DNA from: Escherichia phage SM_W22
Strand: one strand, 5' to 3'
Sequence record: PP920555.1
DNA length: 44,245 nucleotides
Shown: piece after piece, positions 5,855 to 39,844 of the stretch
How positions within the stretch are numbered: the first letter of the stretch is position 1
Layout of the letters: each line of letters begins with the position of its first letter
Made by a program: the position numbers and the translations under genes
Notes under the pieces: generated by a model
The model's database searches: none
Seen by the model: only the letters and a program-made list of their open reading frames with translations
Told to the model about the DNA's origin: nothing

Positions 5855-6373
5855 TTAAAGTGCTTCTAGAATCTCGTAAAACTTATTTGCCAGCGCTTGG
5901 CGGCGTTCGAATTTTTCAGTGATAACCAATTCCGGGCGGTTAAATAGCTTTGCGTGGGTGTTCCAATTGAGGATTTCCGTTTCCATTATTTTCTTCCTGT
6001 CCAGCGCTTGGCGGCGTTCGAATTTTTCAGTGATAACCAATTCCGGGCGGTTAAATAGCTTTGCGTGGGTGTTCCAATTGAGGATTTCCGTTTCCATTAT
6101 TTTCTTCCTGTTGTAGTCGGTGTTTTTGATGCTAAATTCCTTGATAGCGTCATTAAGAAAATCAGTCATACACTCAACGTCTGTTCTCTTAACTTCGAAC
6201 GTACGGGACTCGATTGGGCTATTTGTGCGAAGTACGACGACTCCGCCGTGGTAGGTGTCGACTACCATATACTTATAAGTCACCCCATCCCACTCCGGAT
6301 CGAAAGGGCGCCCAAATACGTCGTCGGCTTTCCACACTTTCTGGTACGGTGTTTCTTTAATTAATGTTGGCAT
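5855..6373 (-). CDS. Hypothetical protein with internal 37-aa tandem duplication (moron)
   Basis: Track ORF 5855..6826 trimmed to Met at 6373 (upstream part is antisense of scaffold gene region); repeat KKIMETEILNWNTHAKLFNRPELVITEKFERRQAL occurs twice. Confidence 0.55.
   Translation of the reverse strand: MPTLIKETPYQKVWKADDVFGRPFDPEWDGVTYKYMVVDTYHGGVVVLRTNSPIESRTFEVKRTDVECMTDFLNDAIKEFSIKNTDYNRKKIMETEILNWNTHAKLFNRPELVITEKFERRQALDRKKIMETEILNWNTHAKLFNRPELVITEKFERRQALANKFYEILEAL
5890..6111. repeat. Perfect tandem direct repeat, 2 x 111 bp, in frame within minus-strand ORF
   Basis: Bases 5890-6000 and 6001-6111 read identical base for base; duplication also visible in translated ORF. Confidence 0.9.
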
Positions 6374-11678: not shown

Positions 11679-11992
11679 TTGAGGCGGCGCGACGCTTTTA
11701 TGGCCCGCCGCCACCCTCCGAAGATTTAGCCGCAAGTTTATGGGGTGCGGCCCCCGAAGATGTTTGTCCGCCTGTTGCGCTATGGCCCGACAACGCGAAG
11801 GTAGTCGCAGTCTTCACAGATTGCTCCACGCAATGGCGCACCGGTTTTGGTGGCGCATACGGCATCGACTACGGCGTGCTGGAGTGGTTATTTAAGATGC
11901 ACGGTATCGAAAACGAACAGCGCGCGTTTAAAGATATCAAGCTAATGGAACGAATAGCGCTTGATGAGATGGCGCAGCAGAACCCCGCATAA
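11316..11992 (+). CDS. Tail assembly chaperone frameshift product (GT-like), predicted -1 frameshift at about 11669-11675
   Basis: Slippery heptamer A_AAA_AAC at last codons of G-like ORF; -1 frame is open for about 105 further codons with no start codon of its own. Confidence 0.5.
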
Positions 11993-11993
11993 T

Positions 11994-12375
11994 GAAGCGG
12001 GACAGGCGGGACGTCCCGTTTTGTCCCGCCTCTGTAAAACTGCATATCTACTCACTTCCACTGCATAAACTCAAAACGGGACAAGCGGGACGTCCCGTTT
12101 TGTCACGCCCTGTAAATATGCATACCTATGCAGATTTCGTGCATAAACCAAACGGGACAGAAAGCGGGACAAACAAGGGGCGGGACAAAGCGGGACAGCA
12201 CCCCATCCCCGCCAGTGCTGCCGCGGTTTTTAGCCGATCGGGACAGCGGGACAGCACCCCAGTCTTTCAGACTAGACGGGGGTCTATGGCCCCCCTCGTC
12301 TGAGACTGAATAAGGTTTGTTTTGAAATCGCTGATACAATATCCATCGGCAACTGCATAAAAAGGGGACTGCATA
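11994..12375. repeat. Iteron- and palindrome-rich noncoding region (copy A of duplicated element at about 12111-12313)
   Basis: About ten CGGGACA units, perfect palindrome CGGGACGTCCCG twice, CTGCATAA motifs; last roughly 200 bp near-identical to 39447-39654. Confidence 0.75.
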
Positions 12376-37067: not shown

Positions 37068-39332
37068 ATGAGCTTAATTAAATTCGCTGTAACAAGACCC
37101 GCTAAAAAAGGCGAAAAAGCCAGGGCGGAAAACTTCCAGATGACGACCGATGAATTTTTCGAATTTATCAAAGATGCGAAAGAGATATCGTCGGTGCATA
37201 TCAACAAGACGGAAGATAAAGCCGAGTATGCGCGCCGCAAGCGTAAGGCCGATGGCATCGTGGCGTATACCAGTGACGGATTGCGTCGTAAGACCAGTGC
37301 GGTGGACCTCTCGATCCTGTTCTTTGATATTGACCGCACCGACACCCGCACCCTGCGCCGCTGCCGTAAGGCGTTCATCGACTCGGGTCTGGAACACGTA
37401 TTTCACACCACCACCGGCGACCGCCACCCGCTGAAGGGCGGCACGCGTTGCGCCCGTTTCCTGGTGCTCACTGACAAGCCTGTACCGGCTGAAGACCTGG
37501 GCCGCGTCCAGTATGCACTATTACACCAACTGGGTCTGTCAGATGTGGACTTCGACGATTGCACGAAAGATACAAACCGCCTGATGTACCTGCCACACCA
37601 GCAGTCCGTTATTAAGTGCCACTATGGCAAGCGCGCCAATGTGCGTCGTCTACTCCGTCGGGCGGACAAGCTGGGGGTGGAAAAAGAGGAAGTACGCCGC
37701 GAGCTTACCCAGGGCGACGACGCAGTGGCAGACGGCATTCTGGACTGGTGCTTCCAGGCCGGATTCGAGGAGTTATCTTCTGGTCGCGGTTATGAAGTGC
37801 CGTGCCCGAACGAACATCTGCACAGCGGCGAAGGGTCGACGGCTATCATGGTCAAGGATGGCGAGATCCGTTTCAAGTGTATGCACACCGGCAACGAGTG
37901 TTGCTCGGAGCTGAACAGACACCAGCACCTGGCGCTACGTCTTATCGGGATCCCGGACCACCTGAACGTCGAGCCACACAACATGTCCCGTAAGCAAATC
38001 GCCGCCATCCTCCCCGGACTGGACGACGAGGAAGTGGAATCGTGCTATGAACATATCGTTGATGCGGTCGGAGACGGCGACGAGTACGGCGGATGTACCG
38101 ACGCTGACCTGGATAACGAACCGGTCGCACTGTTCAGTAAGCACGACCCGATCATAGAAGGCCTGGTCAACTTCAAATCGACCTGGTATATGGCTGGCGA
38201 GTCGAACATCGGTAAATCGTTCTACGTGCTGGGGCAAATGGGTGCGGTTGCCGCGGGGATTCCGTTCGGCGGTGCGAAGGTCGTCCAGTCCCATTGCTTC
38301 TATTTCGACGCGGAAGGTGGCGAAGCCTCCAACCAGCGTAAGGAAGCATTGCAGATCAAATACGAGCACGACCTCGACAAGCTGCACATTATCGATCTGC
38401 AATCACGCGGCTGGGATATCACCAGCAAATCCGGCTTGCGTGAAGTTATCAGCTTCATCAACCGCACCGCTAACGGCGAACCGGTTGGCCTGGTGGCGTT
38501 CGACTCACTCAACCAGACGGTTGCGCTGCGGTCCGCCGATGCCAAACCGTTCGACGAGAACAACGCCAGCGATATGGGCGAAGTGGTCAAGGCGCTGAAG
38601 GCCATCGCGGAAAATACAGGCGGCAGTGCGGGCGTCATCCACCACCCGGCGAAGGGTGCAAACGGCAGCAGATCACCCCGCGGGTCCGGCGCGCTGCATG
38701 GTGCTGTCGATTCTGCGTTCTTCCTGGAGCAACCGGACGACAATCAACCAGGCCAATTGAACCTGTATCACGAAAAGGCACGTAACGGCATCAAGCAAGC
38801 GCCGCGTGGCTTCGTCCTGCTCAAGTGCAAGGTGAAGGTAGATCTCCGCAAGTCCGAGGCGTTCGAATCGCACCAGTCCACCAGCACCGGGCCTGACTTC
38901 GGCGACGTCGTTGCCGGTTGGGACGTCAAGCCGATTGCCTCCACGCCACGCGACGAGACTCTGTACCTCGTACCGGTCGCCCTGGCACCGTTCGCCATCG
39001 AACAGGCGAAGGCCGCAGGAAAAGCCGCGGTTAAGGAAGAGAACACCGCAGGACCGCGCACCGAAAAAGAAAAGGTACTTTACGCGGCCCTGGAAAAACT
39101 GATGGAAGATAACCCGGACCATACTGGTTTCAGTAAATCGGCAATCGTCCGCCAGGCGGGATTGGCAAAAGGTGGAACATCGACGAAGGCAATCGACGAT
39201 ATGGTCGAGCGCGGCGTACTCGGTTTTTATACCGATCCGCACACCGGGGCCATCTATGGGTCGTCTAATATCGTCATAAAAACAAACATACCAACCACAC
39301 TTTCGGCGACCGACGACGACTTAAAAGATTAA
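37068..39332 (+). CDS. DNA primase / replicative helicase (primase-polymerase N-domain plus RecA-like ATPase)
   Basis: 754 aa; N-terminal region with DxD (FFDIDRTD) and Cys/His cluster, central Walker A-like GESNIGKS. Confidence 0.7.
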   Translation: MSLIKFAVTRPAKKGEKARAENFQMTTDEFFEFIKDAKEISSVHINKTEDKAEYARRKRKADGIVAYTSDGLRRKTSAVDLSILFFDIDRTDTRTLRRCRKAFIDSGLEHVFHTTTGDRHPLKGGTRCARFLVLTDKPVPAEDLGRVQYALLHQLGLSDVDFDDCTKDTNRLMYLPHQQSVIKCHYGKRANVRRLLRRADKLGVEKEEVRRELTQGDDAVADGILDWCFQAGFEELSSGRGYEVPCPNEHLHSGEGSTAIMVKDGEIRFKCMHTGNECCSELNRHQHLALRLIGIPDHLNVEPHNMSRKQIAAILPGLDDEEVESCYEHIVDAVGDGDEYGGCTDADLDNEPVALFSKHDPIIEGLVNFKSTWYMAGESNIGKSFYVLGQMGAVAAGIPFGGAKVVQSHCFYFDAEGGEASNQRKEALQIKYEHDLDKLHIIDLQSRGWDITSKSGLREVISFINRTANGEPVGLVAFDSLNQTVALRSADAKPFDENNASDMGEVVKALKAIAENTGGSAGVIHHPAKGANGSRSPRGSGALHGAVDSAFFLEQPDDNQPGQLNLYHEKARNGIKQAPRGFVLLKCKVKVDLRKSEAFESHQSTSTGPDFGDVVAGWDVKPIASTPRDETLYLVPVALAPFAIEQAKAAGKAAVKEENTAGPRTEKEKVLYAALEKLMEDNPDHTGFSKSAIVRQAGLAKGGTSTKAIDDMVERGVLGFYTDPHTGAIYGSSNIVIKTNIPTTLSATDDDLKD

Positions 39333-39345
39333 ATTCTGCGCGCGT

Positions 39346-39442
39346 TGGTTGCCGATATGTGGATCCCCATATCGCTAAAAGACTAAATTTTGCGCGCATT
39401 GGTTGCCATTTTGAGTGTTTTTATCCAGTCGCATTGGTTGCC
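39346..39442. repeat. Three direct copies of GCGC(G/A)TTGGTTGCC-containing repeat flanking a GGATCC-centred palindrome
   Basis: TAAATTcTGCGCGCgTTGGTTGCC and TAAATTtTGCGCGCaTTGGTTGCC 54 bp apart, third GCATTGGTTGCC copy downstream; GATATG-tggatcccc-CATATC hairpin between. Confidence 0.6.
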
Positions 39443-39446
39443 GTGT

Positions 39447-39654
39447 AGTGTAAATATAATGAATAGTTATGCAGTTTTGCTGCATAAAGTAAGCGGGACA
39501 AAAAGCGGGACAAACAAGGGGCGGGACAAAGCGGGACAGCACCCCCGTCCCGCCAGTGCTGCCGCGGTTTTTAGCCGATCGGGACAGCGGGACAGCACCC
39601 CAGTCTTTCAGACTAGACGGGGGTCAATGGCCCCCCTCGTCTGAGACTGAATAA
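39447..39654. repeat. Copy B of duplicated roughly 205 bp iteron element (GCGGGACA repeats)
   Basis: Aligns by eye at roughly 90-95% identity with 12111-12313, including five GCGGGACA units and a GC-rich terminal hairpin. Confidence 0.75.
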
Positions 39655-39804
39655 AATCCGGAGATTGCAAAATACACGGCAACATGATGCGAAGTGCGGT
39701 CGTCGATGAACTAGGCAACCAATGCGGGTTGTATTATGCTGAGTGAAAAATGCAGTTTGCAGCCACAGCAGATAGCGATCAACTTTTTCATACGCGTGAT
39801 TAAT

Positions 39805-39844
39805 ATTGGTTGCATCCGTGCCAGCACCCTGCTATATTGGTTGC
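39805..39844. promoter_or_regulatory. Two direct copies of ATTGGTTGCA upstream of 39869 gene
   Basis: Copies at 39805-39814 and 39835-39844, 30 bp apart; a further GCAACCAAT at 39714-39723. Confidence 0.4.

What the first reader, a model, noticed from the sequence alone, without database searches (positions are those of the whole stretch)
39447..39654. Second copy of the GCGGGACA iteron element, downstream of primase
Copy B shares about 90-95% identity with 12111-12313, including both GCGGGACA pairs and the terminal GACGGGGG...CCCCCCTCGTC hairpin; the differences I saw fall mostly in a predicted loop. A conserved noncoding duplicate in a compact 44 kb virulent genome implies function, possibly a replication origin next to the primase gene or a substrate for recombination or inversion between copies.
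Basis: seen in the sequence. Interest (0 to 1): 0.7.

Follow-up and report, generated by a model that had tools for sequence, protein, structure and literature searches.

The report
Duplicated iteron-type replication origin element
This coliphage carries two copies of a roughly 200-base non-coding element, one after its helicase-primase gene and one inside the tail operon. The element combines an AT-rich stretch, short repeats and a hairpin, and it most likely serves as the binding site and replication origin for the phage's own helicase-primase.

Summary
The duplicate is real. Window 12118-12313 and 39459-39654 are 93% identical over 196 nt without gaps. The window is a Dhillonvirus, and every complete record among 158 related phage records has at least two copies.

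Each copy has three parts:
- an AT-rich 5' part with two conserved boxes;
- six CGGGACA repeats plus inverted copies;
- a ~50-nt imperfect hairpin.

It is not coding, matches no Rfam family and is not a canonical terminator.

Related elements follow the helicase-primase gene in Guernseyvirinae and in sister lineages of Dhillonvirus. The architecture is the same but the short repeat differs by lineage: CGGACAA, CCGACA, GGGATAA, GGGGATR, GTGTGGCA or GTGTGCCA.

In one natural pair (Pantoea phage AH01 and an IMG/VR contig), the upstream HTH regulator is 71/72 identical. Divergence is confined to the C-terminal ~100 aa of the helicase-primase plus the element. That C-terminus models as a winged helix, and the N-terminus as an AEP primase.

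Where the repeat switched to GTGTGGCA, both copies switched.

Best reading: an iteron-type origin bound by the helicase-primase, duplicated as in SPP1 oriL/oriR. This is comparative inference with no experiment behind it.

The 93% identity in this window reflects a gene-conversion tract; typical within-genome identity is about 82%.

The parts
39451..39654 (+). Copy B of the element, in the 536-nt non-coding gap between the helicase-primase gene and the next + strand ORF (39869).
   Evidence: Present at this position in all 15 aligned Dhillonvirus genomes. Homologous elements sit at the same position in Guernseyvirinae.
12111..12313 (+). Copy A of the element, in the 380-nt non-coding gap between the tail assembly chaperone G/T (ends about 11993) and the tape measure gene (12376).
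   Evidence: Also present in sister lineages upstream of the tape measure gene. Absent from Hafnia phage TS33, where chaperone and tape measure genes abut.
39459..39488 (+). AT-rich 5' part of copy B, with box 1 (A)TGAATAGTTATGCA and box 2 TGCATAAA at a fixed 21-nt start-to-start spacing. Candidate DNA-unwinding element.
   Evidence: 39445-39492 is 73% A+T against 46% for the window. The boxes are invariant and the spacer variable across 31 copies. Box 1 is shared by lineages whose iterons differ.
12118..12147 (+). AT-rich 5' part of copy A (ATGCATACCTATGCA ... TGCATAAA).
   Evidence: 64% A+T.
39493..39594 (+). Iteron field of copy B. CGGGACA starts at 39494, 39506, 39522, 39532, 39580 and 39588; inverted GTCCCG lies at 39547-39552. 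The variable middle segment lies between.
   Evidence: The iterons are nearly invariant while the spacers vary.
12152..12253 (+). Iteron field of copy A. CGGGACA starts at 12153, 12165, 12181, 12191, 12239 and 12247.
39601..39649 (.). 3' imperfect inverted repeat (hairpin or cruciform) of copy B: CAGTCTttCAGACtaGAcGGGGG-loop-CCCCCcTCGTCTGAGACTG.
   Evidence: Folded as DNA: -13.4 kcal/mol, z = -4.4. Within Dhillonvirus the loop varies and the stem is constant. In other lineages the arms differ in sequence but stay complementary.
12260..12308 (.). 3' imperfect inverted repeat of copy A.
39549..39625 (+). Gene-conversion tract: 77 nt of copy B identical to copy A (12208-12284). It includes the 'A-type' middle segment, which the copy B of the 14 other aligned genomes does not have.
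11995..12109 (+). Two extra CGGGAC-based palindromic hairpins (11995-12030 and 12074-12109) upstream of copy A. They are separated by a spacer homologous to the AT-rich box region, so region A is a tandem of three modules.
   Evidence: (family D3).
37068..39332 (+). Helicase-primase, 754 aa: N-terminal AEP prim-pol fold, a conserved Cys/His motif, a RepA-like AAA_25 helicase core (aa 357-531) and a C-terminal winged helix (aa about 660-740, nt about 39045-39290). Proposed iteron-binding initiator.
12330..12353 (+). Invariant GCTGATACAAT (extended -10-like) followed by CGGCAAC, just downstream of copy A and upstream of the tape measure ATG. Probably an internal promoter.
   Evidence: invariant in 15 genomes. 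The counterpart after copy B is TTGCAAAATACACGGCA(A/G)C, with CGGCAAC at 39677. Consensus match only.
39345..39844 (.). TTGGTTGC boxes flanking copy B: + strand at 39345, 39399, 39434, 39806 and 39837; - strand at 39715. This is a second, genome-wide motif, probably an operator or promoter box and distinct from the iterons.

Best explanation
The element is the DNA site that the phage's own helicase-primase recognises. It is an iteron-type replication origin, and Dhillonviruses carry two copies.

Proposed mechanism (inferred, not shown):
1. The C-terminal winged-helix domain of the 754-aa AEP-primase / RepA-like-helicase protein binds the CGGGACA repeats.
2. Several protomers assemble on the six direct repeats and the inverted repeats.
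3. The adjacent AT-rich boxes melt, and/or the 50-nt inverted repeat extrudes as hairpins.
4. The helicase loads itself and the primase domain primes, much as RSF1010 RepC, RepA and RepB' do as separate proteins.

Copy B, next to the gene, is the ancestral site shared with Guernseyvirinae. Copy A, in front of the tape measure gene, is a later duplication. It is kept by Dhillonvirus and its sister lineages, and it must be read by the same protein because its repeats change in step with those of copy B. Copy A may be a second firing origin or an initiator-bound auxiliary site like SPP1 oriR or P4 crr.

What is shown directly: the anatomy, the conservation, the co-variation and the fold predictions. 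What is inferred: DNA binding, unwinding, priming and origin firing.
For: 1. Anatomy typical of iteron origins. There are six direct 7-mers plus inverted copies, enriched 20 observed against 6 expected. An adjacent segment is 73% A+T with two conserved boxes at fixed spacing. A GC-rich imperfect palindrome follows, with z = -4.4.
2. Position. The element lies immediately downstream of the helicase-primase gene in Dhillonvirus, in sister lineages and in Guernseyvirinae TS33, AH01, phiEap-2 and three IMG/VR contigs.
3. Lineage-specific repeats in one architecture. The variants are CGGGACA, CGGACAA, CCGACA, GGGATAA, AGGGAT, GGGGATR, GTGTGGCA and GTGTGCCA. A more distant lineage has TTGCGAGT repeats and a GC-rich palindrome at the same position, in a different arrangement.
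4. A natural domain swap between AH01 and L035. The XRE-HTH upstream is 71/72 identical and helicase-primase aa 1-650 is about 98% identical. Nucleotide identity falls to 46-60% from codon ~650 through the end of the element and returns to 93% directly after it. The repeat therefore travels with the C-terminal domain, not with the HTH.
6. Both copies switch repeat together. In sample ERR13731138 the copy upstream of the tape measure gene (L063) and the copy after the helicase-primase gene (L164) both carry GTGTGGCA.
7. Selection. Both copies are kept in every complete record among 158 records. Orthologs (88% and 87%) are more alike than paralogs.
8. Precedents. SPP1 has two similarly organised origins, oriL in the replication region and oriR interrupting the late genes, both bound by gp38 (PMC6316719). 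P4 alpha binds origin repeats through a C-terminal winged helix. pRN1 ORF904, a prim-pol/helicase/WH protein, uses a stem-loop just downstream of its own gene. RSF1010 uses iterons plus ssi hairpins (PMC4234260).
Against: - There is no experimental evidence of binding or initiation. GC skew simply follows gene orientation and says nothing about an origin.
- Several Jersey-like relatives (L029, L030, L034, L036) have ordinary terminators and convergent genes after the helicase-primase gene, with no repeat cluster nearby. The association with position is therefore not universal.
- Both copies are co-oriented with transcription and each is followed by a conserved -10-like box, so a transcriptional role is not excluded.
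- A second origin in the middle of a tail operon has no obvious need, and Guernseyvirinae do with one copy.
- Assigning the two ERR13731138 contigs to one genome is an inference from sizes and complementary gene content.
Confidence: 0.6

Rival explanations
1. Binding array without origin function. The helicase-primase, or another lineage-specific protein, binds both copies. Its role there would be as a roadblock or regulator that gates read-through into the late genes (copy B) and the distal tail genes (copy A), or that autoregulates. Replication would start elsewhere.
For: Both copies lie at operon junctions on the transcribed strand. Each is followed by a conserved -10-like box plus CGGCA(A/G)C. 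In sister lineages copy A sits next to divergently transcribed minus-strand genes and TTGGTTGC operator-like boxes. Co-variation with the winged helix fits any function that depends on binding.
Against: An AT-rich repeated-box segment plus a conserved 50-nt palindrome are not needed for a roadblock. Placement next to the initiator gene, and the AEP-primase/helicase/WH domain set, match origin-initiator pairs. Guernseyvirinae have no equivalent site in the tail operon.
Confidence: 0.17
2. Cis-acting RNA element: a structured leader, processing or stabiliser site, or a put-like antiterminator, transcribed as part of the long + strand transcripts. Or a small RNA made from the promoter-like boxes at its 5' end.
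For: The + strand RNA folds well, at -79 kcal/mol with z = -3.1. The two 5' boxes have promoter-like conservation, with fixed spacing and a variable spacer. Both copies have the orientation of transcription. Two lineage variants keep the outer stem through T-G, which is a G-U pair only on the + strand.
Against: The - strand folds equally well. Nothing reaches a family's gathering score in Rfam. No sigma-70 promoter or U-tract terminator is detected at the element. The repeats occur in both orientations and are replaced wholesale between lineages, together with a DNA-binding domain of the neighbouring protein. An RNA structure under selection would not be expected to behave that way. One lineage's repeat (CCGACA) lacks GGA, which excludes a CsrA-sponge reading.
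Confidence: 0.1
3. Recombination substrate or selfish duplicated insertion. The second copy would be a by-product of illegitimate or homologous recombination, or a small mobile element, with no function of its own.
For: This window shows a 77-nt conversion tract between the copies. The TAC-to-tape-measure gap is a hotspot that holds extra genes in sister lineages. Metagenome assemblies break at the copies.
Against: Both copies are retained in every complete record among 158 records and in sister lineages, with repeats, boxes and hairpin conserved and spacers free to vary. Copy A changed its repeat in step with copy B in the GTGTGGCA lineage. The direct orientation makes crossing-over lethal. 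No transposase or target-site duplication is present.
Confidence: 0.06

Closest known systems
Bacillus phage SPP1 oriL / oriR with origin-binding protein gp38 (G38P)
   Same: SPP1 is a virulent ~44-kb siphovirus with two similarly organised origin elements, each with direct repeats plus an AT-rich unwinding segment. One lies in the replication gene region. The other interrupts the late structural genes and is bracketed by transcription signals. One initiator binds both, and oriR is proposed to stall forks and trigger the theta-to-sigma switch (PMC6316719).
   Different: There is no sequence relationship. The SPP1 initiator is a separate origin-binding protein that needs a loader (gp39) and a DnaB-type helicase (gp40) plus host DnaG. 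Here primase, helicase and the putative DNA-binding domain are one polypeptide. SPP1 oriL lies inside gene 38, whereas here the site is downstream of the gene. The 50-nt palindrome has no described SPP1 counterpart.
Satellite phage P4 alpha protein with ori and crr
   Same: P4 alpha is a single multifunctional primase-helicase whose C-terminal winged helix binds short repeats at the origin (PMC4234260). From my own knowledge, not checked here: P4 also needs a second, distant repeat-bearing cis site (crr).
IncQ plasmid RSF1010 oriV with RepC, RepA and RepB'
   Different: In RSF1010 the three activities are separate proteins, and the iterons are 20-mers in tandem. Priming at the hairpin is untested here. 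The phage also encodes its own DNA polymerase.
Lambdoid phage O protein and ori iterons (specificity module)
   Same: Initiator DNA-binding domain and cognate iterons diverge together as an exchangeable module between otherwise similar phages. This comes from general knowledge of lambda, phi80 and P22. Stx-phage O-ori complexes are the subject of PMC7466680, which I saw listed but did not read.
   Different: Lambda ori lies inside the O gene, and O is only an origin binder that recruits host DnaB through P. There is a single copy per genome.
pRN1 ORF904 and its downstream stem-loop origin
   Same: ORF904 is a prim-pol / helicase / C-terminal winged-helix replication protein preceded by a small repressor gene. 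The origin is a stem-loop directly downstream of the gene and stays functional when moved elsewhere. Similar arrangements are noted in some phages (PMC4234260).

Membership tests
Iteron-type replication origin | Cluster of several copies of a short repeat (iterons) in a non-coding segment | tested here: met
   Six direct CGGGACA plus inverted copies per element. The window holds 20 against 6.0 expected, and 0 of 100 shuffles reach that. They are nearly invariant in 31 copies.
Iteron-type replication origin | Adjacent AT-rich segment able to act as a DNA-unwinding element | tested here: inconclusive
   39445-39492 is 73% A+T and 12110-12151 is 64%, against 46% for the window, with two conserved boxes. 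The composition fits, but unwinding is not testable here.
Iteron-type replication origin | Cognate initiator with a sequence-specific DNA-binding domain, usually encoded next to the origin | tested here: met
   The helicase-primase gene ends 119 nt upstream of copy B. Its C-terminal ~80 aa model as a winged helix. Actual binding was not tested.
Iteron-type replication origin | Iteron sequence and initiator DNA-binding domain co-vary between relatives | tested here: met
   In AH01 versus L035, divergence is confined to the C-terminal ~100 aa plus the element, while the HTH is 71/72 identical. Sister lineages with CGGGACA, GTGTGGCA or GTGTGCCA have different winged-helix sequences.
Iteron-type replication origin | Replication initiates there, or the element supports initiator-dependent replication | not testable with these tools
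   GC skew only mirrors gene orientation. This needs marker-frequency analysis, 2D gels or a plasmid ori assay.
SPP1-like dual origins (oriL/oriR) | Two similarly organised repeat-plus-AT-rich elements, one in the replication region and one within the late genes | tested here: met
   Copies at 39451-39654 and 12111-12313 share the same parts in the same order. The SPP1 description comes from PMC6316719.
SPP1-like dual origins (oriL/oriR) | The same initiator binds both copies | tested here: inconclusive
   This is inferred only. Both copies carry the same repeat in every genome, and both carry GTGTGGCA in the lineage sampled in ERR13731138. That the two contigs belong to one genome is itself an inference.
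P4 alpha-type initiator | DnaG/Toprim-type primase plus SF3 helicase plus C-terminal winged helix in one protein | tested here: not met
   The primase domain has an AEP fold and the helicase core is AAA_25/RepA-like. Only the winged helix is shared. It works like P4 alpha but is not a member.
Intrinsic (rho-independent) terminator | GC-rich hairpin directly followed by a U/T tract | tested here: not met
   No + strand terminator-like site was found in either region. The hairpin is followed by TGAGACTGAATAA. The 'terminator' annotated in phage CS16 falls on the internal CGGGAC inverted repeat, which has no T tract.
Known structured RNA families (Rfam 15) and tRNA/tmRNA | Match to a covariance model at gathering score | tested here: not met
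   There were 0 Rfam matches and 0 tRNA or tmRNA genes in the whole window.
Protein-coding gene (the ORFs 11992-12303 and 39390-39644, annotated as 'hypothetical protein' in some records) | One reading frame kept open across orthologs | tested here: not met
   Most of the 31 copies have stop codons in all six frames, and no frame is open in all copies. Single-base indels separate orthologs.

The most novel reading that the evidence does not exclude
Copy A may not be a second firing origin. It could be a programmed docking site for the helicase-primase inside the tail operon. When occupied, it would arrest the fork coming from copy B and so trigger the switch from theta to concatemer-forming replication, as proposed but never proven for SPP1 oriR. 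At the same time it would gate transcription into the tape measure and distal tail genes. That would couple late tail-gene dosage to the replication state of the genome.
Probability: 0.15. Interest if true: 0.7.

Novelty: new variant of a known kind. Interest (0 to 1): 0.5.

Why it matters
Dhillonviruses and Guernseyvirinae (Jersey-like phages) are among the siphoviruses most often isolated on E. coli and Salmonella, and they are used in reference collections and in therapy work. In the papers I could search, I found no description of their replication origin.

This analysis gives three things:
- a concrete origin candidate that can be tested;
- an assignment of origin recognition to the C-terminal winged helix of a fused AEP-primase / RepA-helicase protein;
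- a natural series of at least eight repeat variants paired with their protein domains, which is ready-made material for studying how a winged helix changes DNA specificity.

The second copy offers a Gram-negative counterpart to the long-standing SPP1 oriR question of what a second origin in the late genes is for.

There are also practical consequences. The element breaks short-read assemblies, is mis-annotated as small hypothetical proteins, and should be kept intact when these phages are engineered.

Tried and rejected
- Rfam at gathering thresholds and the ARAGORN tRNA/tmRNA scan found nothing.
- Sigma-70 promoter and terminator scans of both regions found nothing on the + strand at the element. 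The 5' boxes look like -35/-10 by their conservation pattern, but the -10-like hexamer (CATAAA) lacks the conserved final T, so I dropped the promoter reading.
- CsrA-sponge idea (GGA in every repeat): rejected, because the L035 repeat CCGACA has no GGA.
- The idea that the arms of the 3' hairpin are degenerate iterons fits L033, TS33 and L038. It fails in L063 and L164, where the repeats are GTGTGGCA but the arms stay AGTCT/AGACT.
- The small HTH protein upstream of the helicase-primase as the repeat binder: rejected, because it is 71/72 identical between AH01 and L035, whose repeats differ.
- GC skew as an origin indicator is uninformative here, since it tracks gene strand.
- Coding potential: rejected.
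- A protein search with only the C-terminal 130 aa returned two fragments. The full-length query was needed.
- An IMG/VR scan for GTGTGGCANGTGTGGCA gave 98 stretches, none with the hairpin signature, so these are chance matches.
- Literature searches for HK578 promoters, for the repeat sequence, and for Dhillonvirus/Jerseyvirus origins found nothing relevant.
- phmmer of the helicase-primase against PDB sequences gave no hits.
- A search for a second copy in Guernseyvirinae found only one full copy in TS33, AH01 and phiEap-2. A weak AGGGAT cluster at TS33 22.8 kb was not pursued.

Full report
**1. What the window is**

The window is a Dhillonvirus, an HK578/SO-1-like virulent E. coli siphovirus. 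The region around the finding matches 158 phage records at 80-95% identity, almost all Escherichia or Shigella Dhillonviruses. A collinear annotated relative, JohannBuxtorf_Bas84, gives the gene map:
- structural genes on the + strand from the terminase to the tail fibre, at about 0-24 kb;
- replication genes on the - strand, at about 24-36.6 kb;
- again on the + strand, a small HTH protein, the helicase-primase (window 37068-39332), a set of small genes and the lysis genes, running round to the terminase.

**2. The observation**

The duplicate is real. Window 12118-12313 and 39459-39654 are 196 nt long, ungapped and 93% identical, with 14 mismatches. With a 3-nt indel the homology extends to 12111/39451, and the flanks are unrelated.

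CGGGACA occurs 20 times in the window against 6.0 expected. No shuffle reaches 20, and 15 of the 20 lie in the two regions.

Each copy has six direct CGGGACA in three pairs, plus inverted GTCCCG. Most differences between the copies lie in the AT-rich 5' part, not in a loop.

Copy A lies in a 380-nt non-coding gap between the tail chaperone G/T and the tape measure gene. Two extra CGGGAC palindromes precede it, at 11995-12030 and 12074-12109. Copy B lies in a 536-nt gap after the helicase-primase gene.

**3. Conservation inside the genus**

I aligned both copies from 15 genomes, 31 copies in all. The following are invariant or nearly so:
- the six repeats;
- two 5' boxes, GTG(A/C)ATA... and TGCATAAA, at a fixed 21-nt spacing with a variable spacer;
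- the 3' imperfect palindrome CAGTCTttCAGACtaGAcGGGGG-loop-CCCCCcTCGTCTGAGACTG, whose loop varies.

Spacers between repeats vary and carry single-base indels. Most copies have stops in all six frames, so the small ORFs annotated there in some records are not genes.

Orthologous copies (A-A 88%, B-B 87%) are more alike than paralogous ones (within genome 81.6%, between genomes 79.9%). The two copies are therefore maintained separately.

A-type and B-type copies normally differ in a ~30-nt middle segment. In this window copy B carries the A-type segment, which gives 77 identical bases at 39549-39625. That is a gene-conversion tract, and it explains the unusually high 93%.

**4. What it is not**

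- No Rfam family reaches its gathering score, and there is no tRNA or tmRNA.
- No sigma-70 promoter or U-tract terminator is found on the + strand at the element.
- Both strands fold about equally well as RNA.
- GC skew follows gene orientation and is uninformative.

**5. The wider family**

Distant relatives of the helicase-primase (37-48% identity) carry an element with the same order of parts directly after the gene. Those parts are AT-rich boxes (TGAATAGTTATGCA is shared), paired short repeats with an inverted set, a pair of repeats just before a ~50-nt imperfect palindrome, then ACACGGCA(A/G)C and a promoter.

The short repeat differs by lineage:
- GGGATAA in L033;
- (T)CCGACA in L035;
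- GGGGAT(G/A) in L038;
- AGGGAT in Hafnia phage TS33;
- CGGACAA in Pantoea phage AH01.

These phages belong to Guernseyvirinae.

Closer sister lineages (helicase-primase 66-70% identical) have CGGGACA (L059), GTGTGGCA (L064, L164) or GTGTGCCA (L065). A further lineage, L060, has TTGCGAGT repeats and a GC palindrome at the same place.

The palindrome arms differ between lineages (CAGTCT, ATCCTC, ATCATC, TCTCC) but stay complementary. All ten representatives fold better than shuffles, with z from -2.4 to -4.4.

Some Jersey-like relatives instead have plain terminators and convergent genes after the gene, with no repeat cluster nearby.

**6. Which protein reads the repeats**

AH01 and L035 provide a natural experiment. 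Their XRE-HTH regulators are 71/72 identical and helicase-primase residues 1-660 are about 98% identical. The last ~100 residues are only ~45% identical.

At the DNA level, identity drops to 46-60% from codon ~650 through the end of the element and returns to 93% immediately after it. So the repeat (CGGACAA against CCGACA) travels with the C-terminal domain of the helicase-primase and not with the HTH.

Within the sister lineages, the three repeat types also go with three different C-terminal sequences.

The protein is therefore primase plus helicase plus a putative site-specific DNA binder in one chain.

**7. The second copy**

Guernseyvirinae have a single full copy:
- in TS33 the chaperone and tape measure genes abut, and self-comparison finds no second copy;
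- AH01 and phiEap-2 each show one place.

Dhillonvirus and its sister lineages have copy A in front of the tape measure gene. In the sister lineages one or two minus-strand genes lie between the chaperone and the element.

In sample ERR13731138, a 34,491-bp contig carries a tape-measure-side copy (L063) and lacks exactly the helicase-primase region. A 10,904-bp contig carries the helicase-primase and its copy (L164). Together they make ~45.4 kb, so I take them to be one genome broken at the repeat. Both copies there carry GTGTGGCA repeats with the usual AGTCT/AGACT hairpin. When the repeat changed, it changed in both copies, as expected if one protein must read both.

**8. Mechanism proposed**

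Shown directly:
- the anatomy;
- purifying selection on repeats, boxes and hairpin in both copies;
- lineage-specific repeats;
- co-variation with the C-terminal winged helix;
- the primase and helicase folds.

Inferred:
1. The winged helix binds the repeats.
2. Several protomers assemble.
3. The AT-rich boxes melt and/or the palindrome extrudes.
4. The RepA-like helicase loads, the AEP primase primes, and the phage polymerase takes over.

This matches the logic of RSF1010 (iterons with RepC, RepA helicase, RepB' primase at ssi hairpins), of P4 alpha (a winged helix binding origin repeats) and of pRN1 ORF904 (an origin stem-loop just downstream of the gene). All three are described in PMC4234260.

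The two-copy layout matches SPP1. Its oriL and oriR have similar organisation and are both bound by gp38. oriR sits in a segment that interrupts the late genes and is proposed to stall forks and trigger the switch to concatemeric replication (PMC6316719).

I cannot decide whether copy A fires or is an auxiliary or barrier site.

**9. Rivals**

- A binding array with a purely transcriptional or roadblock role remains possible. Both copies are at operon junctions, and each is followed by a conserved -10-like box, with GCTGATACAAT invariant before the tape measure gene.
- A cis-acting RNA is less likely. The repeats occur in both orientations and are replaced together with a protein domain.
- A pure recombination or selfish-insertion reading conflicts with universal retention and with the concerted repeat switch.

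**10. Novelty**

I found no description of this element or of a replication origin for Dhillonvirus or Jersey-like phages in the searchable literature. Absence from that library is not proof.

The kind of system is known: an iteron origin with a cognate winged-helix initiator, and dual origins as in SPP1. The particular combination appears undescribed. It consists of a fused AEP-primase/RepA-helicase/WH initiator, an origin built from repeats plus a palindrome, and a duplicate inside the tail operon.

I rate it a new variant of a known kind, of moderate interest.

Noticed in passing
window 5890-6111: A perfect 111-nt tandem duplication (5890-6000 and 6001-6111, 100% identical) lies in the region upstream of or overlapping the head scaffold gene.
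   Followed up: no
window, 20 sites: 6403, 6416, 13699, 17047, 22514, 25382, 25394, 26910, 26927, 29878, 33716, 33732, 36527, 39345, 39399, 39434, 39715, 39806, 39837, 40543: The 8-mer TTGGTTGC recurs, often in pairs 12-31 nt apart. Most sites are in intergenic, promoter-like places and on the strand of the downstream gene. It is probably the operator or promoter box of a phage regulator. Related boxes occur in relatives (TATGTTGGCTG in TS33, GCAACCAAC in L037).
   Followed up: partly
window 39322-39375: An optional 54-nt unit sits upstream of copy B. It holds a TTGGTTGCC box plus a palindrome (GATATG.GGAT.CCCATATC). It is present in 6 of 15 aligned genomes, including the window, and absent in 9.
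   Followed up: no
window 12330-12340: GCTGATACAAT is invariant in 15 genomes, 36 nt upstream of the tape measure ATG. It matches an extended -10 promoter, which suggests an internal promoter for the distal tail genes.
   Followed up: partly
L061 2174-2554, L062 2174-2922, L063 2177-2350: Sister lineages carry one or two minus-strand genes (57-126 aa, no Pfam hit) inserted between the tail chaperone T part and copy A. The chaperone-to-tape-measure gap is therefore an insertion hotspot in this phage group.
   Followed up: no
L063 and L164 (Logan sample ERR13731138): Contigs of 34,491 and 10,904 bp have complementary gene content and sum to ~45.4 kb. Each has an element copy. The assembly apparently broke at the duplicated element, a practical hazard for assembling these phages.
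   Followed up: partly
L055 (Hafnia phage TS33) 11214-11226 and 22800-22900: A run of 13 G lies in the intergenic region after the TS33 element. A weak cluster of AGGGAT-like motifs sits in a late intergenic gap at ~22.8 kb and might be a degenerate second site.
   Followed up: no
L036 6940-6985: An 8-nt tandem repeat (GCAGCATG, 6 copies) lies ~1.7 kb downstream of the helicase-primase gene in a Jersey-like contig that has no element directly after the gene. It may be that lineage's repeat cluster.
   Followed up: no
L001 3227-3254 (phage CS16), L054 11149-11620 and 38970-39197 (Bas84): Public annotations place a 'terminator' on the internal CGGGAC inverted repeat and small 'hypothetical proteins' over the two non-coding regions. 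These are probably annotation artefacts.
   Followed up: partly
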